Origin: an uncultured virus (IMG/VR IMGVR_UViG_3300021387_000281)
Taxonomy: Duplodnaviria > Heunggongvirae > Uroviricota > Caudoviricetes > Crassvirales
DNA length: 64,000 nucleotides
Virus record (IMG/VR): IMGVR_UViG_3300021387_000281
Direction: 5' to 3' (one strand)
Shown one piece after another: positions 1,092-62,990 of this stretch. The position numbers were made by a program, and so were the translations under genes. How positions within the stretch are numbered: position 1 is the stretch's first letter; every line of letters starts with the position of its first letter. The notes under the pieces were generated by a model. The model was not told the origin of the DNA and ran no database searches. It was given only the letters and a program-made list of their open reading frames with translations.

Positions 1092-1440
1092 AACACTATA
1101 TAAGATAGTATTGTATTCAGTAAAGGTGATACCTATGGTGGTTTCGGGTATTTATCTGATGAATACAGTACTATCTTATTTTGATATAGACTTGGAACTG
1201 TTTTCCTATGTGGTACAATTCTTGTTTATAGGACAGATGTATGCTACTTCTTTTGCTTTTAAGTTTTGTGCTTGGCACAGGATGTTCATACATTATATCA
1301 TGATTATTTTCATTCTGAACATCATTGATTATCATATAGGATTTCCTCTTACTGATAAGAGAATGCTCACCTTATATATTATTATAGCAACTATTTGTAT
1401 GTTTTTAGCGTTATACTTGAAGATAAAATGCAGACACTAA
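1066..1440 (+). CDS. membrane protein (about 4 hydrophobic segments)
   Basis: 124-aa, strongly hydrophobic ORF overlapping its neighbours. Confidence 0.65.
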   Translation: MAVEESLSKTLYKIVLYSVKVIPMVVSGIYLMNTVLSYFDIDLELFSYVVQFLFIGQMYATSFAFKFCAWHRMFIHYIMIIFILNIIDYHIGFPLTDKRMLTLYIIIATICMFLALYLKIKCRH

Positions 1441-1706
1441 AGAAGATTATAACAAAGCTATTAAGGGAAACTGCTGATAAGATAGATTCTGGAAACTGTG
1501 AATTATCAGAATCAGAAGCTATGGATATTATGAGTGTTCTCAGTCATCAGGCAATGAGTAAAGAGGATGCTTGTGTCTATATGAACATGAGTAGAAGTAA
1601 ATTTGATAGTTTGATTAGTGAAAGAAAGCTTCCTAAAGGCAGGAAGAGAAGAGGATTCAAAGAATTATGCTGGTATCGAGATGAGCTTGATGCTTATAAG
1701 AAGTAG
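1428..1706 (+). CDS. helix-turn-helix DNA-binding protein (excisionase/AlpA-like)
   Basis: MSKEDACVYMNMSRSKFDSLISERKLPKG...W pattern typical of MerR/Xis-like HTH. Probable start MQTLKK at 1428. Ends in TAG. Confidence 0.7.
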   Translation: MQTLKKIITKLLRETADKIDSGNCELSESEAMDIMSVLSHQAMSKEDACVYMNMSRSKFDSLISERKLPKGRKRRGFKELCWYRDELDAYKK

Positions 1707-6643: not shown

Positions 6644-6674
6644 TTTGTTGTTTTAAGAATAGCCCTTATTTTTG
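6644..6674 (+). promoter_or_regulatory. Bacteroidota-type promoter for terL
   Basis: TTTG 6644-6647, 19-nt spacer, TATTTTTG 6667-6674. Confidence 0.65.
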
Positions 6675-6690: not shown

Positions 6691-8976
6691 ATGGAAGAGA
6701 TTAGAGTAAACAAGTATCAAACACAGATTACAGAAGAACTTCTAAAACAATATCCGCAGGAGGTTCAGGATGACTTTAAGGAATTTATAATAACAGTTCC
6801 TTTTATCAAGAATTTGATTTCTCCTAACAGACAGTATGCTAAAGACAGACCCAGAGATGATAGGGGTAGAATTATTGTTGATTTGGCCAATCCACATATT
6901 CTGGAGAATATGGATTACTTCAGACCTGCGGCCCTTCACTATATAAAGCATGGCTGTTATACTTTTTTAAAGCCTAATAAGAATCCGAATTCACCTTACG
7001 GGAAATGGATCAGAGAAGAAATCAGAAGATGCTGGGAAGGCTATGTGAGACCTATTGATGGAGAATGGGTAACCGGGTATATGTATTTCTATTTGAACTA
7101 TGTGCCTATGATGGTCACTAAAGCCAGTAAGGATGCCCGCAAGAAAACAGCTTCCCGTGTAGAAGGATTTCCTGAGGTTTGGGAAGCAACCTACTGGCGT
7201 TTTCATTATATAGACCAAGCAAGAAATGGAGGCAAGTATAATAACTTTGAAGGAGGTAATCATGCCGTAGAACTTAGTAAGCGTGGTAGTGGTAAGAGCT
7301 TTGGTCTTGCTGCTATTATGGCCCACAATCTTATATTAGGTGAGAATGCCGAAGCTCATAAGAGAACTACTACTATCCTCACTGCTTACCTGAGGGAATA
7401 CTTGGCAGAGAAAGATGGTACATTCTCAAAGTTTCTGCCTATTAAATCTTTCTTGGCAGAGAAGATGCCTGCGTGGCCTAGGAGAATGCTAACAGACTCT
7501 CCTAATAAGATGTCATGGAGACAGGGATACAAAGACAAACTTACTGGTGCAGAGATGGGAGACCAGAATATTCTTCTGGGACTTTCTTCTAAAGATGATG
7601 TTTCAAAGATTCGTGGTAAACGAGGATATATATTGTTTGAAGAGTTTGGTTCTTTCCCTAACCTGATTGAGATTTACAACAATGTCAGAGATGGAATGAA
7701 GGAAGGTAAATACGTGTATGGCCTTGCGTATCTCGTAGGTACAGCAGGTGATAAAGACTCAGACTTTCATGGTGCTCAGGAGCTTGTGTACAACCCAAAG
7801 GGATATGATGTATATGCACTGCCTAATGTGTGGGATAAACCCAATCAGGGAAGGCCACTGTTTGCTTTCTTTACTCCTGCCTATGCTAATCTGAAAGGCT
7901 TCTATAATAAGAATGGTGTATCAGATGTAGTAGGCTCATTACTATTTCTTTTACAAAGTAGATTCACGGCCAAATATGAAACAGGAGACCCAAGGACTAT
8001 CATTAAGGTAGTGAGTAATATGCCCATCACTCCTTCAGAGGCTATCATACAAGGAAGTATCAGTCAGTTCCCAGTGACTGATATTGAAGCAAGAATGCTG
8101 GAGATTAAGAGTAATCCGAATTTTTATGATAATACCTATGTGGGCCAGTTTGCCATTACAGATAATAAAGTAGAATTTGTTCCCACATCAGATACACCTA
8201 TCAGATATTTCCAGCAGAAGGATAATAAGAATATGCCAGGAGCAGTGGAAATCTTTGAAATGCCTCAGACAGATTCAGAAGGTAAGGTATATGAAAACAG
8301 ATATATAGCAGGCGCCGACCCTTATGATAATGATGAATCAACCACCACATCACTGGGTTCAATACTGATGCTTGACTTGTGGACAGATAGGATAGTAGCA
8401 GAATATACAGGAAGACCAGCGATGGCAGATGATTATTTTGAAATCTGTAGGAGAATGTGTCTTTTCTATAATGCAAGGCTAAACTATGAGAACAACAAGA
8501 AAGGATTGTTTGCCCATTTCTCAAGAATGAATTCCACCTACCTTCTTACGGATGTATTGGAGATACTTGTAGACAAACAAATGATGAAACCTGGAGGAGT
8601 AGGTAATACTGCAAAGGGTACTAATGCCTCACAGAGTATTAATGGTTGGGCAAGACAACTTATCAATAAATGGTTATTGACTCCTCAAACTACTGTAATA
8701 ACAGAGAATGGAGAAGAGAAAGAAGTCACTATTCATAATCTGAATCTTATTAAGAACCTAGCACTACTTATAGAACTATCAGAATGGAATCCTTTGGGTA
8801 ACTTTGACCGTGTATCTGCTTTAGGCATGCTGATGCTTTTCAGGGAAGACAAACTTAGGTTGATGGGAGGCAGATACAACAATCACACAGAAGATGTCTA
8901 TGACCCTGATGACCCTGCAAATGATGATTTTTTCAGAGATAATTATCCTGATGAAGAAGACAAGATTTTGTTATAA
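6691..8976 (+). CDS. terL: terminase large subunit
   Basis: Walker A-like SKRGSGKS, Walker B ILFEE, motif III VGTAG, nuclease YIAGADPY and NFDRVSAL; 761 aa, upstream of portal. Confidence 0.93.
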   Translation: MEEIRVNKYQTQITEELLKQYPQEVQDDFKEFIITVPFIKNLISPNRQYAKDRPRDDRGRIIVDLANPHILENMDYFRPAALHYIKHGCYTFLKPNKNPNSPYGKWIREEIRRCWEGYVRPIDGEWVTGYMYFYLNYVPMMVTKASKDARKKTASRVEGFPEVWEATYWRFHYIDQARNGGKYNNFEGGNHAVELSKRGSGKSFGLAAIMAHNLILGENAEAHKRTTTILTAYLREYLAEKDGTFSKFLPIKSFLAEKMPAWPRRMLTDSPNKMSWRQGYKDKLTGAEMGDQNILLGLSSKDDVSKIRGKRGYILFEEFGSFPNLIEIYNNVRDGMKEGKYVYGLAYLVGTAGDKDSDFHGAQELVYNPKGYDVYALPNVWDKPNQGRPLFAFFTPAYANLKGFYNKNGVSDVVGSLLFLLQSRFTAKYETGDPRTIIKVVSNMPITPSEAIIQGSISQFPVTDIEARMLEIKSNPNFYDNTYVGQFAITDNKVEFVPTSDTPIRYFQQKDNKNMPGAVEIFEMPQTDSEGKVYENRYIAGADPYDNDESTTTSLGSILMLDLWTDRIVAEYTGRPAMADDYFEICRRMCLFYNARLNYENNKKGLFAHFSRMNSTYLLTDVLEILVDKQMMKPGGVGNTAKGTNASQSINGWARQLINKWLLTPQTTVITENGEEKEVTIHNLNLIKNLALLIELSEWNPLGNFDRVSALGMLMLFREDKLRLMGGRYNNHTEDVYDPDDPANDDFFRDNYPDEEDKILL

Positions 8977-9020: not shown

Positions 9021-9052
9021 TTTGTACATAAAGGAATAAGTCTTTACTTTTG
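9021..9052 (+). promoter_or_regulatory. Bacteroidota-type promoter for portal
   Basis: TTTG 9021-9024, 20-nt spacer, TACTTTTG 9045-9052. Confidence 0.7.
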
Positions 9053-9070: not shown

Positions 9071-11488
9071 ATGAGTGTAGAAACATTTGTAGGGTTTCCG
9101 CAACAGCGTCTTTCTGATAAGCAGAAAGGTAAACAGTGGAGAAAGAAATGTGTTGATTTTGCAGATGCTAAAGGCAGCACTTTGAATTCGTCTCCTGTCA
9201 GGAAGTCCTTTCTTCATAAGAAGATAAACTACGATCTTTGGAACATGAAGATACATACTGATGATATCCAGTATGTATTGAATCCTAATAAGCTGAAGGC
9301 AAACTTCATTCCTGATAACCTGCAGCATTATCCTACTATTAATCCCAAGCTGAATGTGCTTAGGGGAGAAGCTCTTGCAAGAGTCTTTGATTGGCATGTG
9401 ACTATTACTAATCCCAATGCCATCAGTGAGATAGAAAATGCCAAGAGAGATGCAGTATATCAGAGTCTGCAGGCATTGGTACAGAATCAGTCAGTTTCAG
9501 AAGAAGACTATCAGAAGAAGCTTACTGAGCAGAATGACTACTTCCAATACCAGTATCAGGATATGAGGGAAGTAAGGGCCAACGAATTACTGAAACACTA
9601 CAGCAAGGAGTATGATTTCAAGGACTTGTTTGACAATCAGGGTATCATGGATGCCATGATAGTTAAGGAAGAAATCTATCTGAATGACATTATAGGTGGA
9701 GAACCTGTTGTAGAAAGAATAGACCCTATGAAACTCAGGGTATTCAGGTCGGGTAATTCAAATAGAATAGAAGATGCAGATATGCTTGTCTATGAGGATT
9801 ATAAGAACATTGGATGGGTGAGAGATACCTATTATGATGTTCTTACTCCAAAAGACCATGCCTACTTGGATAAGATAGAAACAGGAGGTGTTGATGGTGA
9901 TGATGTAGACATCTGGGATGACAGAAATGCTTACATGAATGACTATCAACTTGGAGATACAATGGTCAGCAATCCCCATTTCTTCTCTACCATGCTGAAC
10001 AATGTGGATTATACTACTACCATGCTTCCTTATGATGGTGAAGGCAATGTGAGGGTACTTAGAGTATTCTGGAAATCGGCAAGAAAGATTAAGAAGATTA
10101 AGTACTACGACTACGAGACAGGAGAAGAGGATTATAAGTTTATGCCTCAGACATATGTTGCAGATAAGACAAGAGGAGAAGAAGAAGAAATACTGTGGGT
10201 TAACGAGGCTTGGGAAGGTACTAAGATTGGTACAGAGATATATGTGAATATCAGACCCAGACCAGTGCAGTACTTCTCAATGAGTAATCCATCGAGATGC
10301 CATTTTGGAATTATCGGGCAGTTATATAATATAGGTAGTACTAACTCACCCTCATTAGTAGATACCTTAAAGCCATACTCTTATTTGTATGATGCTGTTT
10401 TTGATAAGCTTTACAAGTTGATAGAATCCAATTTAGGTAAACTTACTATTTTGGACCTCTCTTTTAAACCCGACTCTTGGACAACAGAGAAGTGGATGTA
10501 CTTTGCCAAGGTAAATCACATTGCAGTAAAGAACAGTTTCAATGAGGGTAAGAAGGGTGCCGCAACAGGTAAGCTTGCAGGAGCTATGAATAACAACTCC
10601 TCAGGTGTGATAGATGCTTCAGTCACCCAGGAGATACAGTACAACATTCAGCTTCTTGATTGGATAGAAACAGTAATGGGTAAAGCCTGCGGAATATCGC
10701 CTCAGAGAGAAGGACAGGTGTCTAATAGGGAGACTGTAGGAGGTGTGGAAAGAGCCACACTGCAAAGCTCACATATCACTGAATGGCTGTTTGCTCAGCA
10801 TGACAGCTTGAAGAAGAGAGAGCTTGAATGTTTCCTTGAAACTGCTAAGATAGCTTTGAAGGGAAAGAAAAAGAAGTTTGAATATATTACCTCAGAGGGC
10901 TCTCAGAAAATCATGGTGATAGATGGAGATGAGTTTGCTGAGTGCGACTATGGTCTTGTTGTGGATAACTCTCAGGGTACTCAGGCACTTTCTCAGAAGC
11001 TTGAAACTCTTGCACAGGCAGGTTTGCAGAATCAGATGATTAACTTCTCTACAATGATGAAACTCTATTCTACAGACTCTATGGCAGAGAAGATTAGAAT
11101 GATAGAAGCATCAGAGAGAAGAATGCAGGAACAGCAGGAAGCCCAGCAACAGCAACAGATGCAGATGCAACAACAGCAGTTGCAGGCAGCAGCAGAGCAG
11201 AAGCAGCTTGAAATGGAGCAGCGAGATATTCAGAATCAGAGAGACAATGACACCAGGATTCTTGTTGCTAAGATACAAGCACAAGCCAATATTGATTCTT
11301 CAGTGGCAAGAGCATCAGGATTTACGGAGACACCTATGCAACCTCTTACTGAGAAAGAAAGAGCTGAATTGCTTCAAAGAACAAGGGAGTTTGATGAAAA
11401 GAACAAGCTTGACCATGAGAAGCTTCAGCTTGAGAGAGAGAAGATTAAATCCCAGGAGAGGATTGCCAAACAGAAGAAACCGAGTTAA
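9071..11488 (+). CDS. portal protein
   Basis: 805 aa after terL. FPQQRL..K N-terminus, WVNEAWEGTKIG, GISPQREG...ETVGGVE, Gln-rich C-terminal coil, as in crAss-like portals. Confidence 0.88.
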   Translation: MSVETFVGFPQQRLSDKQKGKQWRKKCVDFADAKGSTLNSSPVRKSFLHKKINYDLWNMKIHTDDIQYVLNPNKLKANFIPDNLQHYPTINPKLNVLRGEALARVFDWHVTITNPNAISEIENAKRDAVYQSLQALVQNQSVSEEDYQKKLTEQNDYFQYQYQDMREVRANELLKHYSKEYDFKDLFDNQGIMDAMIVKEEIYLNDIIGGEPVVERIDPMKLRVFRSGNSNRIEDADMLVYEDYKNIGWVRDTYYDVLTPKDHAYLDKIETGGVDGDDVDIWDDRNAYMNDYQLGDTMVSNPHFFSTMLNNVDYTTTMLPYDGEGNVRVLRVFWKSARKIKKIKYYDYETGEEDYKFMPQTYVADKTRGEEEEILWVNEAWEGTKIGTEIYVNIRPRPVQYFSMSNPSRCHFGIIGQLYNIGSTNSPSLVDTLKPYSYLYDAVFDKLYKLIESNLGKLTILDLSFKPDSWTTEKWMYFAKVNHIAVKNSFNEGKKGAATGKLAGAMNNNSSGVIDASVTQEIQYNIQLLDWIETVMGKACGISPQREGQVSNRETVGGVERATLQSSHITEWLFAQHDSLKKRELECFLETAKIALKGKKKKFEYITSEGSQKIMVIDGDEFAECDYGLVVDNSQGTQALSQKLETLAQAGLQNQMINFSTMMKLYSTDSMAEKIRMIEASERRMQEQQEAQQQQQMQMQQQQLQAAAEQKQLEMEQRDIQNQRDNDTRILVAKIQAQANIDSSVARASGFTETPMQPLTEKERAELLQRTREFDEKNKLDHEKLQLEREKIKSQERIAKQKKPS

Positions 11489-11546: not shown

Positions 11547-11554
11547 TATCTTTG
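11547..11554 (+). promoter_or_regulatory. -7 promoter element upstream of the tRNA
   Basis: TATCTTTG ending 17 nt before the tRNA 5' end. Confidence 0.5.
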
Positions 11555-11571: not shown

Positions 11572-11643
11572 TGCCCTATGGTGTAATTGACAGCACAAAG
11601 GCTTCTAGATCCTTTAGTCTGGGTTTGAATCCTAGTGGGGCTA
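11572..11643 (+). tRNA. amber suppressor tRNA (anticodon CUA), tRNA-Gln-like body
   Basis: Cloverleaf: acceptor TGCCCTA/TGGGGCT plus discriminator A, D arm GTG..CAC, anticodon arm AAGGC-TT-CTA-GA-TCCTT (CTA at 11605-11607), T arm CTGGG-TTTGAAT-CCTAG. The 5' end TGCCCTATGGTGTAATTG is typical of Bacteroidota tRNA-Gln. CCA is not encoded. Confidence 0.88.
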
Positions 11644-11721
11644 CTCATTTTGTTTATGCGATTTTTTCTTTATTATTAGTTTGTTTTAGTTTAAAGTAGA
11701 ATTCGGACATAGCGCAAGTGG

Positions 11722-11758
11722 AGGTTTAACTGTCTGTGAAGATGGTTAAACCTTTTTT
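11722..11758 (+). terminator. intrinsic terminator after the tRNA
   Basis: AGGTTTAACTGTCT-GTGA-AGATGGTTAAACCT hairpin plus T run. Confidence 0.85.
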
Positions 11759-11802
11759 ATTATTGTAACTGCTAATACCAGTATTAATGATTTATTTATC
11801 AG

Positions 11803-11834
11803 TTTGTGCAGAGGTAGGAATATCCATACTTTTG
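11803..11834 (+). promoter_or_regulatory. Bacteroidota-type promoter for the scaffold/capsid operon
   Basis: TTTG 11803-11806, 20-nt spacer, TACTTTTG 11827-11834. Confidence 0.7.
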
Positions 11835-11866: not shown

Positions 11867-13018
11867 ATGGAAGGTATTGGATTAGACAACATGCTGGGTG
11901 CTGAAGAGATACAGAAACTCTTTGGTGACGGTGAAGAAACACAGGAGGTTCTGGAAGAACAGAATACTACTGAAGAAACAAAAGACAATCAAGAACAAAC
12001 TGCTGAGGTTGATTTTTCAGACTTTATAGGTAATCAATCAGAGAGCGTAGGCAGTGAAGAGAACTCAGAGGGAAACAGGGAGACACCCGATTCAAAGAAT
12101 GACACTGGTGCTCCTAATAAAAATCTCTTCTCTTCCATTGCCAAGGCATTAAGAGATGAAGGTGTTTTCCCTGACCTTTCTGACGACACATGTGACAACA
12201 TCAAGGATGCAGAGGCATTCAGGAAACTATTTGATGAACAAGTATCCAACTCCCTCAGTGAGAGGCAGAAAAGAATTGATGCAGCTTTGAATGGGGGAGC
12301 AGACACAGAGGAAATCAGAAATTACAACAATGACCTCTATATCAATGAGTTCCTCAATGCCAAGGAAACTCAGGATAGACTTGAGAGTGAGAGTGAGGAT
12401 GGCGAGACACTGCGAAAGCAAGTAATGTATCAGGATTACATCAATAGGGGTTTCAGTGAAGAAAGAGCCAAGAAGCTTGTGCTGAAGAGTGTTGAAGATG
12501 GTACTGATATTGAAGATGCCAAGGAAGCCCTTAACTCCTGCAAGGATTACTACAGCAAGAGAGTAGAAAGTTATCAGCAGGAAATCCAAAGTAGGGAAAA
12601 GAGTAAGAAGGCAGAAGAAGAAAAACAGTATAACAATCTGAAGAAACAGATTATAGATACTGAGGATTTCTTCGGGGGTGTGAAAGTAGACAAGAGCACT
12701 CGTCAGAAAGCCTATGACTCTATTACCAAGCCTGTGTATAAGGATGAGAATGGTAACTTCCTCACTGCTTTGCAGAAGTATCAGAAGGAAAATCCTCTTG
12801 ACTTTATGAAGAATGTTGCACTGATGTACTCCTTGACAGATGGTTTCCAGAATGTAGACAAGCTCACTAAGAAACAAGTAAAGGCAGGTTTGAAGAAAGG
12901 CTTTGCAGAACTTGAAAGTGTTCTTAACAATACTCGCAGGAATTCAGATGGCACATTGAATTTTGCTAATGGGGATCCGACAGAAGAGAACAGAGAAAAC
13001 TGGACTTTGGCTATTTAA
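11867..13018 (+). CDS. probable capsid scaffolding/assembly protein
   Basis: Acidic, helical 383-aa protein between portal and major capsid gene. Confidence 0.6.
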   Translation: MEGIGLDNMLGAEEIQKLFGDGEETQEVLEEQNTTEETKDNQEQTAEVDFSDFIGNQSESVGSEENSEGNRETPDSKNDTGAPNKNLFSSIAKALRDEGVFPDLSDDTCDNIKDAEAFRKLFDEQVSNSLSERQKRIDAALNGGADTEEIRNYNNDLYINEFLNAKETQDRLESESEDGETLRKQVMYQDYINRGFSEERAKKLVLKSVEDGTDIEDAKEALNSCKDYYSKRVESYQQEIQSREKSKKAEEEKQYNNLKKQIIDTEDFFGGVKVDKSTRQKAYDSITKPVYKDENGNFLTALQKYQKENPLDFMKNVALMYSLTDGFQNVDKLTKKQVKAGLKKGFAELESVLNNTRRNSDGTLNFANGDPTEENRENWTLAI

Positions 13019-13099: not shown

Positions 13100-14635
13100 A
13101 TGGCAGGACAATTAGGTAAATTTACAATGCAGCACTTTAAGGCATGGGCCCCTCAGATTACTAAGAAGACCCATATTAGTTCCATCTTTGGCACTAAGAC
13201 TCAGAAGGTGCCAGGTATGATGGTACAGCTGATGGCCTTTAAGTATGGTAAGACACTTGACACTATGCTCAGCGCTCTTCCTGTAAAGGAATTTGAGAAT
13301 GGTGAGGAGTACATCTGGGATGTGATTGGTTCTACGGACAGAATCATTCCTCTGGTGGAAGCCCGTGATGAGAATGGTGAAGTAGTTACAGCCGAGAGTG
13401 GTAATGTAGGTGCTGGTACTCAGCCTTTCTATCTGGTGTTTGCAGAGCATTGGTTCTTTGATGGTGAGACCATTGAGGGTAATCTGGGTAACCGTTATCC
13501 CCTTCGCATTCTTGGTGATGCCCGTGAGGAAGGTTCCAATTATATCTATAAGGTAGAGACGATGGGTGGTATCACTGATGGTGTACCTGCAGAGCGTCTT
13601 CTTCCTGGTGAGAACTTCTCTTATGGTGCAGCCTTTGTTGAAGGAGGTCTCTCTCGTAAGGTTGGTGGTATTCGTCATGCAGTACCTGTGTCAATGAGAA
13701 ATGAATGGTCACACATTCGTATTCACCACAAGGTATCTGGTGACATGATGGATGACAAACTTGCTATTGCTGTTCCTATGAATGAGCCCACCAACAATGG
13801 TTATAAGGTTCGCATGGTGAACACTTGGATGCTGAATGTAGACTTTGAGGTTGAGAAGACCTTCCGTGACTACAAGAACTATGCTTATGCATGGGGTCGC
13901 AGCAACCGTAATAAGAATGGTGAGTATACTAACTTTGGTAAGAGTGGTGATGCCATCAGAACTGGTGCTGGTCTTTATGAGCAGATTGAGATGGGTAATA
14001 TTGTCTGGTACAATGACTTCTCTCTGAAGCTTATTGAAGATGCTCTTTATGACCTGTTTGCCGGCAAGGAAGACTTCAAGGACAGAAAGGTTACTATCCG
14101 CACTGGTGAGAAGGGTGGTATGCTGTTCCAGAAGGCAGCTCTGAAGGATGGTAGTGGTTGGAAGTCGATGTTTGACTTCAATGGTGATGCTCTTGGTTTG
14201 ATTTCCAAGACCACTAATGCTGCTGCTCCTCACGGTGGTGCTCTTAGAGTAGCTGTTCCTCAGATTACTGAGTTTGTTGCTCCTATGGGTGTTGCTATCA
14301 CTCTTGATATTGACCAGAGCTATGACAACATCAACCACAGTGGTTATAAGATTATGCATCCGATGGGAGGCCCTGCAAGCTCTTATATCTTTGATATTCT
14401 GGACCTTGGTTCTAGCATCAGCCCGAATATTCAGAAGTGTAAGATTAAGGGTCATCCTGAGGAGTCTCGTGGCTATGAGGCAGGATTCCGTAATCCGTTT
14501 ACTGGTGCATGGGATAATGACCACATGAGCAATGACGAGGATGCAGCTGTCATCCACAAGTTTGCAGATGCAGGTATTGTAGTTTGGGATCCTACCCGTA
14601 CTATGAGAATCATGCCTGACATTCTTGAGGGTTAA
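13100..14635 (+). CDS. major capsid protein
   Basis: 511 aa, strongly biased (highly expressed) codons, G(K)SG..IRTGAGL.EQ and TGEKG motifs of crAss-like capsids, position after the scaffold, followed by a terminator. Confidence 0.88.
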   Translation: MAGQLGKFTMQHFKAWAPQITKKTHISSIFGTKTQKVPGMMVQLMAFKYGKTLDTMLSALPVKEFENGEEYIWDVIGSTDRIIPLVEARDENGEVVTAESGNVGAGTQPFYLVFAEHWFFDGETIEGNLGNRYPLRILGDAREEGSNYIYKVETMGGITDGVPAERLLPGENFSYGAAFVEGGLSRKVGGIRHAVPVSMRNEWSHIRIHHKVSGDMMDDKLAIAVPMNEPTNNGYKVRMVNTWMLNVDFEVEKTFRDYKNYAYAWGRSNRNKNGEYTNFGKSGDAIRTGAGLYEQIEMGNIVWYNDFSLKLIEDALYDLFAGKEDFKDRKVTIRTGEKGGMLFQKAALKDGSGWKSMFDFNGDALGLISKTTNAAAPHGGALRVAVPQITEFVAPMGVAITLDIDQSYDNINHSGYKIMHPMGGPASSYIFDILDLGSSISPNIQKCKIKGHPEESRGYEAGFRNPFTGAWDNDHMSNDEDAAVIHKFADAGIVVWDPTRTMRIMPDILEG

Positions 14636-17668: not shown

Positions 17669-18406
17669 ATGAGGTTGGATGAATTCAGCAATGAGTTTGA
17701 TATTCTGGTGAACAGTTATCGAAGGATAAAATCCTTTGATGGCAGAGAAGCATTGGATAGCATTGAATTCAATGAGTACGAGAAATCTCTTTTTCTTACA
17801 AAAGCTCAAGAGGAAATTGTCATCAGTTATTACAATGGCAAGAATACCAATGATGAGTCTTTTGAGAGTACAGAAGAGATGAGAAGATACCTGTCAAAAC
17901 TCTTACTGGATGATAAACTTACTCCAATTACAACAGTATCAGGCTATCCTCTTGGAGTAGAAAGTAATTCAAAATTCTTTACTCTTCCAGAACATTTGTG
18001 GTTTATCACTTATGAAGCTGTGAAGGTAACAGATAATGATTGCGAGAATACTTCCACAATGGAAGTAATTCCTGTAACTCATGATGAGTATCACAGAATA
18101 AAGAGTAACCCTTTCAGGGGAGCTAATAAACACAGGGCCTTGAGATTGGATTTATCAGAAGGAGTAACTGAGATAGTATGTAAATACCCTGTAGAGTATT
18201 ACTATATCAGATATATCAGGAGACCCAATCCCATTATTCTTGTAGACCTTCCTGATGGTTTGACTATAGATAATATAGGAATACGTACACCTTGTGAGCT
18301 TCATGATGCTTTGCACAGAAGAATTCTGGAGCTTGCAGTGAGAGAAGCCCTTCAGAGTAAAGGGGTTGCAATAAGAGAAGAAAATAGAGATAATACAAAT
18401 AGATAA
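17669..18406 (+). CDS. tail ring/adaptor protein, paralogue 3
   Basis: EFSNEFDILVN...FNEYEKSLFLTKAQ...YIRRPNPIIL...CELHDALHRRILELAV. Confidence 0.72.
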   Translation: MRLDEFSNEFDILVNSYRRIKSFDGREALDSIEFNEYEKSLFLTKAQEEIVISYYNGKNTNDESFESTEEMRRYLSKLLLDDKLTPITTVSGYPLGVESNSKFFTLPEHLWFITYEAVKVTDNDCENTSTMEVIPVTHDEYHRIKSNPFRGANKHRALRLDLSEGVTEIVCKYPVEYYYIRYIRRPNPIILVDLPDGLTIDNIGIRTPCELHDALHRRILELAVREALQSKGVAIREENRDNTNR

Positions 18407-18462
18407 CCGCCCTTAGAAGGCATAGGCTGATGGGGCAATGTTGAATTTAAATTTTTAATATC

Positions 18463-19521
18463 ATGTTTACGGAAAATCAAGTAAGACAGTTTTATGTTGC
18501 TAACAGTGTAGCTGCTCCTGCTATTGATGCTGCAGGTACTGTAGTAGCTACCGATGCTGCTGGTAAGGCACAGCTTGTTACTAAGGGTGATGATGCTTAT
18601 TTCCTGTACAGCGGTTCTATCCAGGGTGACCTTCAGAGGAGTGACCTTTTCAAGAAGTGCAATGTGGTGGATGTTCGTATGACAGATGCTGCAGACCTCG
18701 TTCACAAGATGAAGAAGGTGGAGGTTACTCTTGCTTCTTTGAATGGTAGTAATGCTCCTATTGTGGGTCAGGACTATATTCTGAATGTAGCCATTCATGA
18801 TTATGTGTCTATGGATTACAACACCACGAAGGTTAAGTATGGTGTAGCCCGTGCTACAACCACTACTGCTTCTGACCTCTACAAGGCTATTGCAGTTAGT
18901 CTGGCCAAGAACTTCAAGCGTGAGCCTGTGAAGCTTATCAAGGTGTTTCTGAAAGGCATTAATGGTGAGGTTGATGGCTCTAAGAAGGCTTCTGAGATTA
19001 CTGGTACTGCTACTGCTATTGTTATTGAGGAAGCCGAGCAGCCTTGGCGTAGAGGTGCAGCTCCTCAGGAGTTTGTTAACTTTGAGGTTAATCCTTCTAC
19101 TGTTTATGTGCAGGCTTTGAATGATGACCTTGTTTGGGGCACTGTAACTGATGTTACTGCTTCCAATACTAATGTTCTTCCCAACTCTAAGAAGGTTGCA
19201 GATATGGAGTGGTTCTTCCACAAAGAGAGAGGTGACAAGTATGGTGAGATGTGCTGGCCTTGGAATGTGGATACCGTCTATATGGTTGATCCTGCCAATG
19301 CAAATGGTTATAGCTTTGTTGACATTCACTTCTACTTTGAGGGCAATAGCCACAATGTAGGCAAGAGTGAAAAGACTCTTACTATTGTTGGTACTAAGGC
19401 TAACCTGAAGACTCTTGTGGGCTCTGCTGCTACTACTGGTGAGAGTGCTACTGCAGCCACTGGTCTCTTTAAGTTCCTTGAAGGTTCCAATGCTAAGGTG
19501 GTACTGTCGAAGAGCTGGTAA
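18463..19521 (+). CDS. abundant virion protein, probably an auxiliary capsid protein
   Basis: 352 aa, starts MFTENQVRQFYV, Ala/Thr/Val-rich, codon bias like the capsid gene, own terminator. Confidence 0.6.
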   Translation: MFTENQVRQFYVANSVAAPAIDAAGTVVATDAAGKAQLVTKGDDAYFLYSGSIQGDLQRSDLFKKCNVVDVRMTDAADLVHKMKKVEVTLASLNGSNAPIVGQDYILNVAIHDYVSMDYNTTKVKYGVARATTTTASDLYKAIAVSLAKNFKREPVKLIKVFLKGINGEVDGSKKASEITGTATAIVIEEAEQPWRRGAAPQEFVNFEVNPSTVYVQALNDDLVWGTVTDVTASNTNVLPNSKKVADMEWFFHKERGDKYGEMCWPWNVDTVYMVDPANANGYSFVDIHFYFEGNSHNVGKSEKTLTIVGTKANLKTLVGSAATTGESATAATGLFKFLEGSNAKVVLSKSW

Positions 19522-36200: not shown

Positions 36201-39200
36201 ACAAAGAGAAAGAAGAGAAGAAAGCAGACAAGAAGAATGCTGAGGAAGATGCAAAGAGTAAGTTTGCAGGAAAGACGGCAAAGGAAATAAACCAAGATAT
36301 TTCAAATGGAAATATATCTGAAGAAGATGTAGACGATTTCTCAGTTGCTGACCTTAGCGATATTACTGATGAAGATTCCAAACAAGCATTGGAAGCTGCA
36401 AAGAGTGAAGCACAGAAAAGTAAAGAGATTAGACAGAAACAAGCAGAAGCCAAAGGAGCTATTCTACAGAAAGCAGATGAAGAAGGTTATAACAGTGCTT
36501 CTGTTGATGCAGCATTGAATGCTATAGACACTATGGCTGCAAATGCTGATGATGCAGCAGATATCAACTTGGATAATGTAGCAGCTGCCATTCCTCCTTC
36601 TGATTATGAAGGAGCAGATGTTGGTGTATCAGAAGCAGAGAAATTAGCACAACAGGTTACAGACCTTGTGGCTGAAGGGCTCAATGCATGGAAAGAGAAC
36701 CAAGATAAAAAAGATGATATTCCTGACCCATCAACTGCTGTAAACTTTAGAGAACCAGAGGATACTGGACATGACAGTACTACTAAAGTGCCCGCAGAAA
36801 CAGCTGCACCTAAAGTAGAAACTCCTCAGAATAGTGATGAGTGGGAGCAGCCCACTCCTACTAATACCCTAACATCGGAAGCAGTAGATACTATTGTAGA
36901 AGAGCTGAGAAAAGCAAGTGAAGAACCTGCAAAGGCTGGAACATGGAGAAGCACTACAAGGAGATATGGAAGAAGACAGAATGCTGCAGGAGGATGGTAT
37001 GCAACTAATGTTCCCTATCATGAGCTGATATCAGATAAGAACTCTTTGAGGTATAAGAGGAGCAAGGCTATATGGGAATATCTTGATGCTCAGGGAACTT
37101 GGGATAGAATAGAAAATGCAGGCAAAGACAGACTAAAAGCAGGAGACAAGATACACTTTATGGTAAAGAACTTTGCCAATGAAATATTTGGTAAAGACTT
37201 TGAAGACTGTACTGAAGAAGAGAAATCGCAGGCACTTGTTATCTTGATGCTTAATGATAATGGGGAAGTACTTGGAGATTTACCTCTTGCCCAGTTAGAG
37301 CCCTCTTATAACAATGGTGATGAGTCAAAGATGACTCAGCAAGTAAAGGAACTTGTATCTACCCAGAAAATGCTCTTTGATGCTTTTGAAGAGAAGAGAA
37401 AGCAGACAGGATGTAATGAAGCTATAGCAGACAAGACTCTTCAGAAAGACGGTGTAGAGAATCTTGGACTTACTTTTAATAACAGAACTAAGAGTCCATT
37501 TATGTCAGAGATTTCTCAGGTACTGAATGGTATGGTGCCATTTGGTAGTGAGGTGAATACTCTGAATGATGTGATGGGCAATGAGAACTTGCTGCTTGGT
37601 ATATCTGTTACAGGAGAGACTATTGCCACTTCAAGAGATAAGAAGGACAGAAGAGGCGGCGCTGCAAGAGGTACTAGGACTGGTAATATAGGACAGCCCT
37701 ACCTGCTTATGCCTTCAGCCTCTGGAGCTTTGATGGCTGTGCCTTTCTATACCAAAGCTTTTGATGCTCAAAGACATCAGGGAACAGAACTCTATAGACT
37801 GCTGACGGAATCAATTACAAGCTTGCTTCAAGATGCTATCAATAAAAAGGAAGATGCAAACTCCTATAAAGAAGCAATGGATATTATACAGGCATTGCTT
37901 CAAGTAAGACCACAGGAAGGAGCTAAGAGTACTGTAGAGATTAAGGACAATCAGGTTATCATGCATCTGCAGAGCTTGGTTGATGCAGACAGGAAGATAG
38001 ATATTACAATACCAAATACTGGAGATGTGACTGCTATGGCTACTGCTATAGCTAATCAGATGAGTGGTACTAATATCAATATCAGTCTACAGTTTATCAA
38101 TACTAAGATTGGTAGAAAGGGAGGTAGGACAGCGGATTACAATAAGGTAATAGGAGAGATTGCGGAAGTTAATCTTCCAAAGAACACTACTCACACAAGA
38201 AACAACTGGTTTACTATTAAGCTTTCTACTCAGGCAGGAAATAAGAGAAATGAAGTAAGATACCAGCAGTCAGGAAAGCAGACAGTGAATCTGAATGGTA
38301 GGACTATTCAGATAGATACTGATAACTTTACTGCAGTAAGAATAGACCCAACAACCAAGGAAGAGATTCCTATAGAAGGTGATGAAGAAGTGAATCTGCT
38401 TCTTGCTGAAGTGAAAGCTGCACAGCAGGCAGACAAGACAAAAAACTTTAAAATAACCTTGGATGGAGAAGTCAGAATTTGTAAAATTACAGATAATGGA
38501 AAGGTTGAATTTGTAAAAGCTTCTCAAGGTACAGGTGTCAATGCAGGGCAGGAATCTCTTAATAAGCAAAGAGATGAGAGAAGAGAAAGAAGGAATGAGA
38601 TTAGGACTTATATTAATGATAATATTAGAAGTCTTAATGTCGCAGGAAGTAATGCTATTATTGATGACATTCTTGAGATTGACCCATCATTAGACACTCA
38701 AAAGATTGCTGGATTAATAGAGAAAGCATTTAATAGGAGTCCTGCGGCTGCAAAGTGGCTTATTGAACATAGTGGATTTAGGAATAAGCTGATTACACTT
38801 ATTAGAAAGAGTAATACTACGCAAGAGAATCAAACTACTTCTAATGTTTCTCCTGCTACTACTACTTCAAATACAGAAGAAACTACTTCAACACAGCAAG
38901 TAGCCCAAGGTGCTATTTCCTTCTCTAATGATAGTGCTCAACAGCCTACAAAGCAACAATGGTCAGATACACCTGAGCATAGAGTGCAGAACAGTAAACT
39001 TTTGCACAAACAAGATATTCTTGACGTGTATGATGATACAGACGGTGGATTGCAAATAACTATAAAAGCAATAGATGGGTCAGGAAGAACTGCAATAATA
39101 GGCTTTAGTAATAGTAAGAAAAAATTTACTCTACAAGTAAATACTCTTCAAGGAGAAGATGCTGTTTATCCATCCGAAGAACAAATAAATAATATGGTAA

Positions 39201-54923: not shown

Positions 54924-54952
54924 ATCTTAATAAAATATTTATATTTTTGGTA

Positions 54953-54983
54953 CAAAGATACTGAGAATAAAAAGGGCTACAAA
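54953..54983 (-). promoter_or_regulatory. Bacteroidota-type promoter for the RNAP operon
   Basis: On the - strand: TTTG (54983-54980), 19-nt spacer, TATCTTTG (54960-54953). Confidence 0.65.
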
Positions 54984-59569: not shown

Positions 59570-59584
59570 AATAATAGATATTTA

Positions 59585-59612
59585 GTCGTTATGCTATAAC
59601 GACATACTAGAC
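59585..59612 (+). repeat. 7-5-7 palindromic element (dispersed family)
   Basis: GTCGTTA-TGCTA-TAACGAC-ATACTAGAC. Confidence 0.75.
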
Positions 59613-59737
59613 TTAAACTTAGGGCAAGCAGGACAATATGACCATGTAGACTTTGGTCCAAATGTGCAGATAGGAGTTCCTAATATATCATAGAAGAAAT
59701 ACAGGCACTCTTTGCATAAATGGTCTTTAGATGGCAT
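59594..59737 (-). CDS. small Cys-rich protein (47 aa)
   Basis: MPSKDHLCKECLYFFYDILGTPICTFGPKSTWSYCPACPKFKSSMSL; GGAGG upstream; ends TAG. Not in the ORF track. Confidence 0.55.
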   Translation of the reverse strand: MPSKDHLCKECLYFFYDILGTPICTFGPKSTWSYCPACPKFKSSMSL

Positions 59738-59739
59738 AA

Positions 59740-59877
59740 CTACCACCTCCTTTCCCTTAGTAAGTCATACTCAGTGAATACTCTCCAGTTTTTGTCAACA
59801 TAGTACTTTACCTTGTTGACAGTGGCAGCATAGTACAATGTGCTGCCTTTACGATTATAAATGATTTCGTTTTTCAT
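59740..59877 (-). CDS. small hypothetical protein (45 aa)
   Basis: MKNEIIYNRKGSTLYYAATVNKVKYYVDKNWRVFTEYDLLRERRW; ends TAG 2 nt before the next ATG; alternative start at 59901. Confidence 0.55.
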   Translation of the reverse strand: MKNEIIYNRKGSTLYYAATVNKVKYYVDKNWRVFTEYDLLRERRW

Positions 59878-59922
59878 TACAGTAAGCTTTTTTTCAATCA
59901 TTCATTGTAGGTACAATTATAA

Positions 59923-60315: not shown

Positions 60316-60466
60316 GTTTTCTTTCTTTTTTTAACTGTTCTCTTTTATACTCTGCAATATAGCGGGTAGCTTGTACTTTTTCTCTACCACCTCTGTTCCA
60401 ATACCAATCTTTCCAGTATTCTTTAGGATTAGTTTTCCACATGGGAGCTTTAGAAATACTATCCAT
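60296..60466 (-). CDS. small basic Trp-rich protein (56 aa)
   Basis: MDSISKAPMWKTNPKEYWKDWYWNRGGREKVQATRYIAEYKREQLKKERKHEQRPV; TAATG coupling to the upstream gene. Confidence 0.6.
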   Translation of the reverse strand: MDSISKAPMWKTNPKEYWKDWYWNRGGREKVQATRYIAEYKREQLKKERKHEQRPV

Positions 60467-60642
60467 TACTTCAAGACTTCTTTATGAAAGGTTATATTTC
60501 CCTGGGTAAACATCCATTGACAGTCATTGGCTCTATGTCCAAGAGAGTCTAAGAGTTCATCTATATCAGGCTCATTATCATATTTTACAGGATAGATATC
60601 TACTTCTCCTGTAGTAAAGTCAAGAATAATTAACTTTTCCAT
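60466..60642 (-). CDS. small acidic protein (58 aa)
   Basis: MEKLIILDFTTGEVDIYPVKYDNEPDIDELLDSLGHRANDCQWMFTQGNITFHKEVLK; TAATG overlaps at both ends. Confidence 0.65.
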   Translation of the reverse strand: MEKLIILDFTTGEVDIYPVKYDNEPDIDELLDSLGHRANDCQWMFTQGNITFHKEVLK

Positions 60643-60812
60643 TATATTACCTTTTTTAATGTTTCAATGAGAGCATCACGTATAATGCTCTTGTCTTTTA
60701 AATCACATCTATGAAGTGCTACATAGTTTCTTCGGTAATTACCATACTAGTCAGTATAGTCTTTTACTTTACAATATGTACCATCTTCATTAACAGTAAT
60801 AGTAATCTTCAT
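60642..60812 (-). CDS. 56-codon gene with one in-frame TAG (codon 22), intact if TAG is read as Gln
   Basis: MKITITVNEDGTYCKVKDYTD[TAG]YGNYRRNYVALHRCDLKDKSIIRDALIETLKKVI-TAA. Start overlaps the upstream stop (TGATG) and stop overlaps the downstream start (TAATG). Confidence 0.65.
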
Positions 60813-61860: not shown

Positions 61861-61866
61861 ATTCCT

Positions 61867-62708: not shown

Positions 62709-62736
62709 GTTGCTATAACATAGCAACATACTGGAC
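62709..62736 (+). repeat. 7-5-7 palindromic element (dispersed family)
   Basis: GTTGCTA-TAACA-TAGCAAC-ATACTGGAC. Confidence 0.75.
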
Positions 62737-62990
62737 TAAGATATAGCTAACTGGCCTAAGCCACACTCTTTAAGGCGAGCATTAGCATAGTTGTGACGAA
62801 GCTCTGAGAGTTTCTCTACAATTTCCTTTGTTGCCCACTGCTTTTCAATAGGAACAAAAGGGACACCATTGTAAGCAATAAATAGACTATCATCAAAGTC
62901 ATCGAGAGTAATGAGTCTCTCAGCTTCTTCCATGATGTTTGCATAACGCTTGGTTTGAGATTTTTCTCTGATTGTACGAATGAATTCCAT
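62736..62990 (-). CDS. hypothetical protein
   Basis: 84-aa ORF in the operon; ends TAG. Confidence 0.65.
   Translation of the reverse strand: MEFIRTIREKSQTKRYANIMEEAERLITLDDFDDSLFIAYNGVPFVPIEKQWATKEIVEKLSELRHNYANARLKECGLGQLAIS

What the first reader, a model, noticed from the sequence alone, without database searches (positions are those of the whole stretch)
11572..11643. Amber-suppressor tRNA(CUA) in the late region of a phage whose large genes are not recoded
Seen: a complete tRNA-Gln-like cloverleaf with CTA at the centre of the anticodon loop, with its own -7 promoter box and terminator, between portal and scaffold. All long genes (up to 3211 aa) are open in code 11 with no in-frame TAG. 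Known: some Crassvirales reassign TAG to Gln and encode such tRNAs, but then their late genes are full of TAG. Inference: this genome captures an intermediate state (suppressor gained before TAG codons spread, or kept after reversion). Alternatively the tRNA is a late-expressed effector that causes read-through of host TAG-terminated genes or switches on amber-containing phage genes (see 60642-60812).
Basis: partly seen in the sequence, partly recalled or inferred. Interest (0 to 1): 0.88.

Follow-up and report, generated by a model that had tools for sequence, protein, structure and literature searches.

The report
Amber-suppressor tRNA in standard-code crAss phage
A gut crAss-like phage that still uses the ordinary genetic code carries a real glutamine-type tRNA that reads the stop codon UAG, and it and its closest kin hold the first few UAG codons inside genes: an early stage of a code change that is already described in such phages.

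Summary
ARAGORN and Rfam both call a tRNA with anticodon CUA at 11572-11643 (+), between the portal gene and an acidic scaffold-like gene.

- **Code:** the phage is crAss-like and uses the standard code. Code 11 covers 95% of 77.8 kb, and reading TAG as sense adds nothing.
- **tRNA ancestry:** it descends from Bacteroidales-type tRNA-Gln. All 32 loci with a sense tRNA on the same 5' half hold tRNA-Gln. Its odd anticodon arm (C31·U39, G37, A38) recurs in G011, a complete relative with TAG-filled late genes.
- **Distribution:** it sits in the post-portal slot in 3 of 5 members of one shallow clade and in 0 of 9 outside it.
- **In-frame TAGs:** the window has one, where 8 of 9 cluster homologues have Trp. 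Sister record G008 has one aligned to a CAG Gln codon.

Best reading: a suppressor shared with a recoded lineage, probably captured from it, at the onset of TAG-to-Gln recoding. Suppressors without recoding are already in print (PMC7886860, PMC12386605), so this is a new member of a known kind. Charging and suppression are untested.

The parts
11547..11554 (+). TATCTTTG, a match to the Bacteroides-type -7 promoter box, 17 nt upstream of the tRNA
   Evidence: Sequence. L005 has TACCTTTG 12 nt upstream of its copy. The motif alone is barely enriched (77 found, 63 expected), and there is no -33 TTTG at 17-23 nt. Promoter function is inferred.
11572..11643 (+). tRNA(CUA), a Gln-derived amber suppressor. 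Anticodon CTA at 11605-11607; U1·U72 mismatch, A73, C31·U39 mismatch, G37, A38, A19/U56; no encoded CCA
   Evidence: ARAGORN; Rfam 45 bits; pair counts; feature table; alignments.
11720..11763 (+). intrinsic-terminator-like hairpin (16 pairs) followed by a T-run
   Evidence: -19.8 kcal/mol, z -4.66, 0 of 200 shuffles as good. L005 keeps a hairpin here with changes on both arms.
11803..11834 (+). full Bacteroides-type promoter match (TTTG N20 TACTTTTG) for the next late gene, which closes the tRNA unit
   Evidence: 9 matches in the window against 2.5 expected; others lie upstream of TerL and portal.
9071..11488 (+). portal gene, upstream neighbour (stop TAA)
   Evidence: PHROG 6547, E 8.5e-126.
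11867..13018 (+). acidic 383-aa late protein, downstream neighbour (scaffold-like; function inferred)
   Evidence: No PHROG, Pfam or PDB sequence match. Translation. Orthologues in G007, G008, G009, L008 and L011.
60642..60812 (-). 56-codon accessory gene with one in-frame TAG at codon 22 (60747-60749). Its start overlaps the upstream gene's stop and its stop overlaps the next gene's start
   Evidence: The homologue cluster P0001-P0009 has W at codon 22 in 8 of 9 and Q in 1. The same TAG allele sits in L100, which is 99.55% identical over 1775 nt. The gene is absent in L056 and L058.
1395..1706 (+). TAG-terminated ORF; read-through would add 17 codons
3276..3785 (+). TAG-terminated gene; read-through would add 1 codon before a TGA
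62736..62990 (-). TAG-terminated gene; read-through would add 9 codons

Best explanation
This is a working, glutamine-type amber-suppressor tRNA of the kind that TAG-recoded crAss-like phages use. Its anticodon arm is shared with the suppressor of a recoded relative, so it was probably captured from such a lineage, though the direction of transfer is not shown. It sits as a small unit of its own (promoter-like box, tRNA, terminator) between the portal gene and the next late gene of a standard-code crAss-like phage.

It would be transcribed in the late region, given CCA by the host and charged by the host GlnRS. It would then read some UAG codons as Gln while the host RF1 still terminates at the others.

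The phage has not rewritten its genes. The effect for now is to make UAG nonsense changes tolerable, so that the first in-frame TAGs appear: one in this genome and at least one in a sister genome. This is the onset of TAG-to-Gln recoding.

Shown: the tRNA, its Gln ancestry, its distribution, the standard code of the genome, and the in-frame TAGs. Inferred: expression, charging with Gln, suppression, and the direction of transfer.
For: 1. **Real, constrained tRNA.** establish it. The three orthologous copies (window, L005, L006) differ through paired changes in the anticodon stem. The tertiary 19-56 pair also switches: A19/U56 in window and L005, G19/C56 in L006. This is my reading.

2. **Gln ancestry.** The 5' half (acceptor plus D arm) matched 47 loci in bacterial genomes. 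32 hold tRNA-Gln (CUG or UUG) at the match, mostly in Bacteroidales; 12 hold CUA tRNAs; 3 hold none. No other sense identity appears. Of 21 phage records matching the tRNA, 13 are annotated tRNA-Gln, 3 tRNA-Arg and 5 carry no feature.

3. **Same arm as a working suppressor.** G011 is a complete 99-kb relative (TerL, portal and MCP 53-54% identical in amino acids). Its code-11 density of 0.726 rises to 0.923 with TAG as sense; TerL carries 17 TAGs and portal 20. Its tRNA(CUA) shares C31·U39, G37 and A38 with the window's, and 14 of 17 anticodon-arm positions are identical.

4. **Shallow distribution.** The tRNA is in 3 of 5 members of a clade supported at 100/99, in 0 of 6 of the sister clade and in 0 of 3 of the outgroup. 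L007 and L011 show no remnant. All relatives examined are standard-code.

5. **In-frame TAGs.**
   - Window codon 22 of the 56-aa gene (W in 8 of 9 homologues), also present in L100, a second, slightly different assembly.
   - G008 (tRNA-bearing): a Zn-ribbon gene with TAG between its two CxxC pairs, aligned to CAG in G009.
   - G008: two borderline TAGs.
   - Robust in-frame stops in real genes were all TAG (4 of 4 over 559 kb). There were none in the two complete relatives without a CUA tRNA or in G009.

6. **No helper genes.** No release factor or aaRS gene was found in the 77.8 kb. Pfam covered 66 of 71 ORFs of at least 50 aa; PHROGs covered TerL, portal and MCP among its 46.
Against: - No data show expression, charging or suppression. 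No listed sequencing run is on record as RNA.
- The window itself has only one in-frame TAG, in an accessory gene that close relatives lack. It could simply be a dead allele.
- G007, which also carries the tRNA, has no in-frame TAG in 36 kb.
- G004 and G005 have one robust in-frame TAG each, but no tRNA was found in those fragments. The link between TAGs and the tRNA is therefore loose.
- The phage still ends 9 of 75 genes with TAG, and those genes show no closer back-up stops: median 14.5 codons, against 7 for TAA and 4.5 for TGA.
- PMC12386605 argues, for zeta crAss-like phages, that diverged lineages keep such tRNAs without gathering TAGs, which favours a host-directed role.
- About 22 kb of the genome was not seen.
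Confidence: 0.55

Rival explanations
1. Host-directed effector. The tRNA is kept mainly to force read-through of host UAG-terminated genes late in infection, which would damage host proteins including defence proteins. The few phage TAGs are a by-product.
For: The idea is raised in PMC7886860 (discussion) and preferred in PMC12386605 for zeta crAss-like phages that keep Sup-CTA without suppression. The window's late block has 0 of 26 TAG stops against 10 of 47 elsewhere (Fisher p 0.011), as expected if late translation runs alongside a suppressor. The tRNA has its own unit in the late region.
Against: The TAG-stop pattern does not track the tRNA. G008 carries the tRNA and has 2 of 5 late orthologues ending in TAG. 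G009 lacks it and has 3 of 17. L011 and L008 lack it and have 0 of 5 and 0 of 4. Late genes commonly prefer TAA anyway. The tRNA is only in a shallow clade, so there is no long-term retention here. No host data are available. This reading is not exclusive of the best explanation.
Confidence: 0.2
2. Dedicated switch. The tRNA exists to turn on particular amber-containing phage genes, such as 60642-60812, at the right time.
For: 60642-60812 is a real gene that needs UAG read-through to be made whole. G008's Zn-ribbon gene needs it too. Earlier notes of this scan report amber-gated small genes in other standard-code phages (unchecked leads).
Against: The TAGs are not conserved. 8 of 9 homologues of the 56-aa gene have Trp at that codon, and the gene is absent from L056 and L058. 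G009 has CAG where G008 has TAG. The TAG upstream of gene 1066-1440 turned out to lie in the 5' leader. Each TAG sits in a different gene in a different genome.
Confidence: 0.08
3. Relic of reversion. The lineage was once TAG-recoded, changed its TAGs back and has not yet lost the tRNA.
For: A recoded relative (G011) carries the same anticodon arm. The Borges preprint grants that routes back to the standard code are possible.
Against: The sister clade (6 records) and the outgroup (3 records) in the portal tree lack the tRNA at this slot, and the records examined are standard-code. Reverting hundreds of TAGs (G011 has 17 in TerL alone) is far less parsimonious than one gene capture. The tRNA sits at a different place than in G011: after the portal gene here, upstream of TerL there.
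Confidence: 0.07
4. Inert passenger. The gene is a recently acquired tRNA that is not expressed, not charged or too weak to matter.
For: It has unusual features: U1·U72, C31·U39, G37 next to A36, and no encoded CCA. Its Rfam score is moderate (45 bits). The promoter evidence is weak.
Against: Three diverged orthologues keep the cloverleaf through paired changes. The same odd arm serves a fully recoded phage. Among distinct CUA tRNAs of this family, 10 of 13 have a weakened 1-72 pair against 0 of 26 sense tRNA-Gln, so the mismatch looks like a feature and not decay.
Confidence: 0.05

Closest known systems
'Suppressor pre-emergence' and incipient recoding in crAss-like phages (Yutin et al. 2021, PMC7886860, section 10; passages read)
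   Same: A suppressor tRNA sits in a crAss-like genome with no apparent reassignment. Their beta-group genome OFRY01000050 acquired a TAG suppressor and began to gather TAGs in conserved genes. The window's nearest named relatives are also beta-group (Steigviridae, Asinivirinae; TerL 57% amino-acid identity).
   Different: This is a different phage; its close relatives occur in animal-gut runs, one labelled bovine. They suggest a bacterial source for OFRY's tRNA, whereas here the anticodon arm matches that of a recoded phage relative. Their supplementary figures and data were not seen, so overlap with their set cannot be excluded.
Zeta crAss-like phages with Sup-CTA but no suppression (PMC12386605, 2025; passages read)
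   Same: Standard-code crAss-like genomes that carry a CUA tRNA. The same two explanations are debated there.
   Different: There, whole diverged clades keep the tRNA in large tRNA arrays without gathering TAGs. Here it is a lone gene in a shallow clade, and in-frame TAGs have begun to appear. In this window, back-up stops do not follow TAG closely.
Standard-code Agate phage with a TGA suppressor (Borges et al., bioRxiv 10.1101/2021.08.26.457843; passages read)
   Same: A standard-code close relative of recoded phages has acquired the matching suppressor. The authors propose this as a step before code change, and note that TAG is a rare stop in such relatives.
   Different: A different stop codon (TGA to Trp), phage group and host phylum.
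Code-15 crAss-like phages: cr53_1 and cr60_1 (Suoliviridae) and IMG/VR record G011
   Same: They carry homologous Gln-derived tRNA(CUA): cr53_1 77% identical, G011 81%. cr53_1 and cr60_1 annotate theirs as tRNA-Gln. The TAG-to-Gln reading was confirmed by metaproteomics in two crAss-like phages (PMC9523058; search listing and start of abstract only).
   Different: Their late genes are full of TAG. G011 goes from 0.726 to 0.923 coding density with TAG as sense; loci L001 and L002 gain 10-19 points. The window gains nothing.
E. coli supE (tRNA-Gln with anticodon CUA); recalled, not read here
   Same: A tRNA-Gln whose anticodon reads UAG, is still charged by GlnRS, and gives partial read-through in a standard-code cell.
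   Different: supE is a point mutant of a chromosomal gene. This one is phage-borne, has a remodelled anticodon stem and a mismatched 1-72 pair, and its charging is untested.

Membership tests
tRNA (Rfam RF00005) | Cloverleaf scoring above the family's gathering score, full length | tested here: met
   45 bits against 29, model positions 1-71. ARAGORN agrees. On 11 homologues 95.7% of cells are paired.
Amber-suppressor tRNA of the Gln type (Sup-CUA) | Anticodon CUA in a 7-nt loop with U33 | tested here: met
   The loop reads UUCUAGA with the anticodon at 11605-11607. L005 and L006 also read CUA.
Amber-suppressor tRNA of the Gln type (Sup-CUA) | Descent from tRNA-Gln | tested here: met
   All 32 loci with a sense tRNA on the same 5' half hold tRNA-Gln; of the other 15 of 47 loci, 12 hold CUA tRNAs and 3 none. 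It is 78% identical to Bacteroidales tRNA-Gln(CUG).
Amber-suppressor tRNA of the Gln type (Sup-CUA) | Charged with Gln and inserts it at UAG | not testable with these tools
   Indirect only: TAG aligns to CAG Gln in G008 versus G009 and to Q in G005 versus G004, but to W in the window's own gene.
Code 15 (TAG-to-Gln recoded) phage genome | Many in-frame TAGs in late genes, with coding density rising when TAG is read as sense | tested here: not met
   0.950 against 0.958 in the window; 0.953 against 0.956 over 77.8 kb. Late genes hold no TAG. The positive control G011 goes from 0.726 to 0.923.
Crassvirales | crAss-type TerL, portal and MCP plus the crAss001-type tail and cargo gene set | tested here: met
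   PHROGs 6681, 6547 and 11589. Pfam CrAss_Ring_1, _2 and _3_4, crAss_AuxCP, crAss_THA, crAss_THB, crAss_MUZ, crAss_CARG1 and crAss_CARGO2. The best TerL hits are Steigviridae at 57%.
Suppressor without reassignment ('pre-emergence' or incipient recoding, PMC7886860) | Suppressor tRNA present, genome not reassigned, at most a few stop codons inside conserved genes | tested here: met
tRNA-Pyl (ARAGORN's label) | Pyl-type tRNA architecture together with pyl genes | tested here: not met
   The label follows from the anticodon alone. The homologues are tRNA-Gln. Pfam found no Pyl gene family among the 66 proteins scanned. The Pyl-specific tRNA architecture was not scored.

The most novel reading that the evidence does not exclude
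This shallow clade may be a live, still-polymorphic onset of TAG-to-Gln recoding, seeded by lateral capture of a suppressor from a fully recoded relative. The series would run from G007 (0 in-frame TAGs) through the window (1) and G008 (at least 1 robust plus 2 borderline) to G011 (hundreds). At one codon the population holds TGG, TAG and perhaps CAG alleles.

A second part of the reading concerns the mismatched 1-72 pair. It is U·U or U·G in 10 of 13 distinct CUA tRNAs of this family and in 0 of 26 sense tRNA-Gln. It may be a recurrent adaptation that lets the host GlnRS accept a tRNA that has lost G36. My one search on this listed no paper on this point among its 15 rows; only one was opened.
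Probability: 0.3. Interest if true: 0.6.

Novelty: new member of a known kind. Interest (0 to 1): 0.4.

Why it matters
[quoted passage not shown] This case offers a graded set of related genomes with the same type of suppressor:

- no TAG inside genes (G007);
- one (this window);
- a few (G008);
- hundreds (G011).

That makes the 'suppressor first, codons later' route testable at the bench and by population sequencing. It also warns annotators that a CUA tRNA does not mean code 15, and that a standard-code call can still hide single genes that need read-through. The phenomenon itself is already described for crAss-like phages, so the value lies in a clean example and not in a new principle.

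Tried and rejected
1. **Amber-gated long form of the membrane protein at 1066-1440 (TAG at 1027-1029).** Rejected. Close orthologues L101 and L102 start at the ATG just before the conserved block. L102 has two tandem TAGs upstream and no start codon upstream of them, so the TAG lies in the 5' leader.

2. **'Weak suppressor' inferred from G37 and the C31·U39 mismatch.** Rejected. The fully recoded G011 uses the same arm.

3. **TAG-stop avoidance in late genes as a footprint of the tRNA.** Inconclusive. The window shows 0 of 26 against 10 of 47, but the pattern does not follow the tRNA across relatives.

4. **Back-up stops after TAG.** They are not closer than after TAA or TGA.

5. **In-frame TGA aligned to W in G003 and G006.** The query is an ORF on the strand opposite to its neighbours with a low-complexity product, which I read as an antisense artefact. 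Other TAA and TGA rows lie at alignment edges, in alignments with several stops, or in ORFs on the opposite strand of known genes. I did not resolve every one, for example G003 8568/8727.

6. **Reads at the amber codon.** Contigs of four runs were laid on 59000-62500. The table of differences was cut (277 rows not shown) and position 60748 was not listed, so there is no verdict on TGG, TAG or CAG frequencies. One contig of X12 joins 60632 to 60819 and so lacks the ORF.

7. **RNA evidence.** No RNA holder was listed.

8. **DNA behind P0006 (the Q variant).** It could not be fetched. It may be a CAG allele or a TAG allele that the source translated as Q.

9. **Repeated motif GTTAAAGTTWAA.** Not enriched: 22 found, 19 expected.

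10. **tRNA remnants in L007 and L011.** None found.

11. **Whole genome of the window.** Not held. IMG/VR record G001 matches the window exactly over the 6110 nt compared and adds 13.8 kb. About 22 kb remains unseen, going by CheckV's completeness estimate.

12. **Earlier notes of this scan.** None for this genome or this tRNA sequence.

13. **Search with G008's two TAG-bearing ORFs as queries.** Not run. The Zn-ribbon alignment came from a stored ORF of G003 instead.

Full report
**1. Is it there?**

Yes. ARAGORN finds a single tRNA in the 64-kb window, at 11572-11644 (+), with anticodon cta. Its 'Pyl' label comes from the anticodon alone. Rfam's tRNA model matches 11572-11643 over its full length at 45 bits, against a gathering score of 29. 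The anticodon CTA lies at 11605-11607.

On an alignment with 10 homologues the cloverleaf is paired in 95.7% of cells. Twelve pairs change on both sides, and none of 500 shuffles reaches this.

The gene lies 83 nt after the portal stop. A strong hairpin and T-run follow it at 11720-11763 (-19.8 kcal/mol, z -4.66), and relative L005 keeps that hairpin with changes on both arms.

The upstream TATCTTTG at 11547-11554 fits the Bacteroides -7 box, and L005 has TACCTTTG at a similar distance. The 8-mer alone is barely enriched, however (77 found, 63 expected), and no -33 TTTG lies at the usual spacing. The promoter is therefore plausible but not shown.

**2. What genome is this?**

It is a crAss-like phage.
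- TerL (6691-8976), portal (9071-11488) and MCP (13100-14635) hit the crAss PHROGs.
- Pfam finds the crAss001 ring, tail-hub, muzzle, cargo and auxiliary capsid families.
- The nearest named phages are Steigviridae, Asinivirinae (IAS virus, cr85_1), at 57% TerL identity.

IMG/VR record G001 matches the window exactly over the 6110 nt compared and adds 13.8 kb of replication genes.

Over these 77.8 kb, code 11 gives 95.3% coding with stops TAA 46, TGA 20 and TAG 9 in 75 ORFs of at least 40 aa. Reading TAG as sense gives 95.6%. In the window alone the figures are 95.0% and 95.8%. The phage is not recoded.

No release factor or aminoacyl-tRNA synthetase was found. Pfam covered 66 of 71 ORFs of at least 50 aa; PHROGs covered TerL, portal and MCP among its 46. 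About 22 kb of the genome was not seen.

**3. What kind of tRNA?**

Its acceptor stem and D arm were used as a pattern against one genome per prokaryote species, and 47 loci matched.
- 32 hold tRNA-Gln (CUG or UUG) at the match, mostly in Bacteroidales MAGs plus a Gabonibacter isolate.
- 12 hold CUA tRNAs. Several sit on contigs of about 100 kb that look like binned crAss-like phages.
- 3 hold no tRNA at the match.

No other sense identity appears. In the phage collection, 13 of 21 matching records are annotated tRNA-Gln, 3 tRNA-Arg and 5 carry no feature. Those checked with ARAGORN read CUA in recoded Suoliviridae (cr53_1, cr60_1, cr7_1) and in two unclassified gut contigs. They read UUG or CUG in bajarodcaudo virus 1 and mycobacteriophage Wildcat.

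The tRNA is therefore Gln-derived. By recalled knowledge of GlnRS (not read here), a CUA anticodon with U35 is still accepted by that enzyme, and the enzyme opens the 1-72 pair.

Among distinct sequences of this family, 26 of 26 sense tRNA-Gln have U1-A72. Of 13 CUA tRNAs, 8 have U·U, 2 have U·G and 3 keep a Watson-Crick pair. The window has U·U (G011, found later, has U-A). This may be shared descent or an adaptation; I cannot tell which.

**4. Where does it come from?**

The window clade is unusual among the CUA tRNAs in keeping G37. It shows G37 in 3 of 3 copies, whereas the 10 other distinct CUA tRNAs have A37 and 23 of 26 sense tRNA-Gln have G37. It also has a 31·39 mismatch in all three copies.

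A scan of IMG/VR for this loop type found only the two known relatives and one more record, G011.

G011 is a complete 99-kb genome with terminal repeats. Its TerL, portal and MCP are 53-54% identical to the window's. Its late genes are full of TAG: 17 in TerL, 20 in portal, 53 in a 2522-aa protein. Its coding density rises from 0.726 to 0.923 when TAG is read as sense, while its replication genes have none.

Its tRNA(CUA) has the same C31·U39, G37 and A38. 14 of 17 anticodon-arm positions are identical to the window's, the closest arm of all those compared. Only the tRNA itself matches; the flanks do not.

So this odd arm works in a phage that depends on it, and the window's copy belongs to the same lineage of suppressors.

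**5. How is it distributed?**

A portal search gave 50 IMG/VR loci. Of the 36 scanned, only L005 (92% portal identity) and L006 (87%) have the CUA tRNA, both just after the portal gene.

In a portal tree these two and the window fall in a five-member clade (support 100/99) with L007 and L011. L007 and L011 lack the tRNA and show no remnant of it. Branching inside the clade is unresolved. The six-member sister clade and the three-member outgroup lack it at this slot.

All relatives examined at length (G004, G005, G007, G008, G009, G003, G006) are standard-code. One capture into a standard-code lineage is the simplest history.

**6. Are TAG codons beginning to appear inside genes?**

*In the window.* The 171-nt frame 60642-60812 (-) starts on the stop of the gene before it and ends on the start of the gene after it. 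It contains one TAG, at codon 22.
- A cluster of nine 56-aa proteins matches it at 96% or more. Eight have W at codon 22. One (P0006) has Q and is otherwise identical to the window's product.
- Whether P0006 stands for a CAG allele or for a TAG that its source read as Q could not be checked.
- The TAG allele also sits in L100, a second assembly that differs from the window at 8 of 1775 positions.
- The gene is absent from L056 and L058 and from one contig of run X12.

*In relatives.* I ran an all-against-all tblastn of eight records totalling 559 kb.

Robust in-frame stops, in genes I judged real:

| Record | Position | Aligned residue | tRNA(CUA) status |
|---|---|---|---|
| G008 | 19860 (Zn-ribbon gene, between its two CxxC pairs) | CAG Gln in G009 | present |
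| G005 | 12504 (mid-gene) | Q (CAA) in G004 | none found; record is a fragment |
| G004 | 43692 | K in the window | none found; record is a fragment |

G008 also has two borderline TAGs: codon 27 of a 111-aa gene, and one five residues before the aligned end of TerL.

No robust in-frame TAA or TGA was found in a real gene. No robust TAG was found in G003 and G006 (complete, no CUA tRNA), in G009, or in G007, which carries the tRNA.

The counts are small and the genomes are related. Even so, all four robust cases (including the window's) are TAG, and two of them align to Gln.

**7. Tests that did not decide**

- The window's late block has 0 of 26 TAG stops against 10 of 47 elsewhere (p 0.011). 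The pattern does not follow the tRNA in relatives, though: G008 (with tRNA) has 2 of 5, G009 (without) 3 of 17, and L011 and L008 (without) 0 of 5 and 0 of 4.
- TAG-terminated genes do not have nearer back-up stops.
- The TAG upstream of gene 1066-1440 lies in the leader, not in the coding region.
- Laying contigs of four runs did not report the amber position, because the table was cut.
- No RNA run was listed.

**8. Reading**

The best explanation (0.55) is a functional Gln-type suppressor, shared with a recoded lineage and probably captured from it, that gives partial UAG read-through late in infection. It has just begun to let TAG codons settle inside genes.

The main rival (0.2) is that it is kept chiefly to damage host translation.

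A dedicated switch (0.08) fits poorly, because no TAG position is conserved. Reversion (0.07) is unparsimonious. An inert passenger (0.05) fits poorly with the paired changes and with the arm shared with G011.

**9. Novelty**

Suppressor tRNAs in crAss-like phages without reassignment are in print.
- Yutin et al. 2021 describe 'incipient code change' and 'suppressor pre-emergence', including a beta-group genome that acquired a TAG suppressor and began to gather TAGs (PMC7886860; passages).
- Borges et al. show a standard-code phage with a TGA suppressor (preprint; passages).
- A 2025 paper describes zeta crAss-like clades with Sup-CTA and no suppression, and argues for a host-directed role (PMC12386605; passages).
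- Earlier notes of this scan also record such cases on other DNA.

This is therefore a new member of a known kind. Its added value is a graded series with a candidate donor-type relative, and the tRNA anatomy. My one search on the 1-72 mismatch listed no paper on it among its 15 rows; I opened only one.

The supplements of PMC7886860 were not seen and may list related genomes.

Noticed in passing
L174-L178 (G011, IMG/VR record of 98,996 nt); tRNA at L167 8964-9037 (-): A complete, fully TAG-recoded crAss-like genome related to the window (TerL, portal and MCP 53-54% identical). Late genes carry up to 53 TAGs and replication genes none. It has 6 Rfam tRNA matches, including a CUA tRNA with the same C31·U39, G37, A38 arm as the window's.
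   Followed up: partly
tRNA family: loci L104-L150, L001-L003, L094-L097: The 1-72 pair is U-A in 26 of 26 distinct sense tRNA-Gln. It is U·U or U·G in 10 of 13 distinct CUA tRNAs of the same family. This may be an adaptation to GlnRS or shared descent.
   Followed up: partly
L097 1004-1076 (mycobacteriophage Wildcat tRNA-Gln CUG): It shares the window tRNA's unusual D loop (AATTGACA) and T loop (TTTGAAT, i.e. A19/U56 in place of G19/C56) and is 79-82% identical, although the hosts are in different phyla.
   Followed up: no
window 45288-54923 (-): A 3211-aa protein with an ADP-ribosyltransferase domain (ART-PolyVal) and a NADAR domain near its N-terminus. It looks like a polyvalent protein. 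A 1331-aa gene and a 2531-aa gene, neither with a family match, lie next to it.
   Followed up: no
window 6644-6674, 9021-9052, 11803-11834, 54915-54983: Full Bacteroides-type promoter matches (TTTG N17-23 TAnnTTTG), 9 in the window against 2.5 expected. They lie upstream of TerL, portal and the gene after the tRNA, and as a divergent pair between the two gene blocks.
   Followed up: partly
G005 12504 and G004 43692 (IMG/VR fragments; L092-L093 and L080-L083): Each has one in-frame TAG inside a conserved gene, aligned to Q and to K in relatives. No tRNA was found in the fragments held, so whether these phages carry a suppressor is open.
   Followed up: partly
L122 and L136 (contigs of 101,563 and 101,041 nt filed under Segatella copri MAGs); L105, L123 and L137 (about 100 kb, filed under Bacilli, Mollicutes and Sphaerochaeta MAGs): Contigs of crAss-like genome size that carry CUA tRNAs of this family. 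They are probably phage genomes binned into bacterial MAGs.
   Followed up: no
window 61255-61860 (-) and L003 5326-5889: A small PI-PLC X-domain-like protein sits in the early block. Bajarodcaudo virus 1 annotates a 'PI-PLCc protein' next to its tRNA array.
   Followed up: no
window 60296-61258 (-): A chain of four small genes is joined by one-base start/stop overlaps at 60812, 60642 and 60466. The middle 56-codon gene is present or absent among close relatives.
   Followed up: partly
L079 about 18400-18470 (G001 39089-39160, -): The only other tRNA in the 77.8 kb seen is tRNA-Arg(CCU), about 12 kb beyond the window's end.
   Followed up: no
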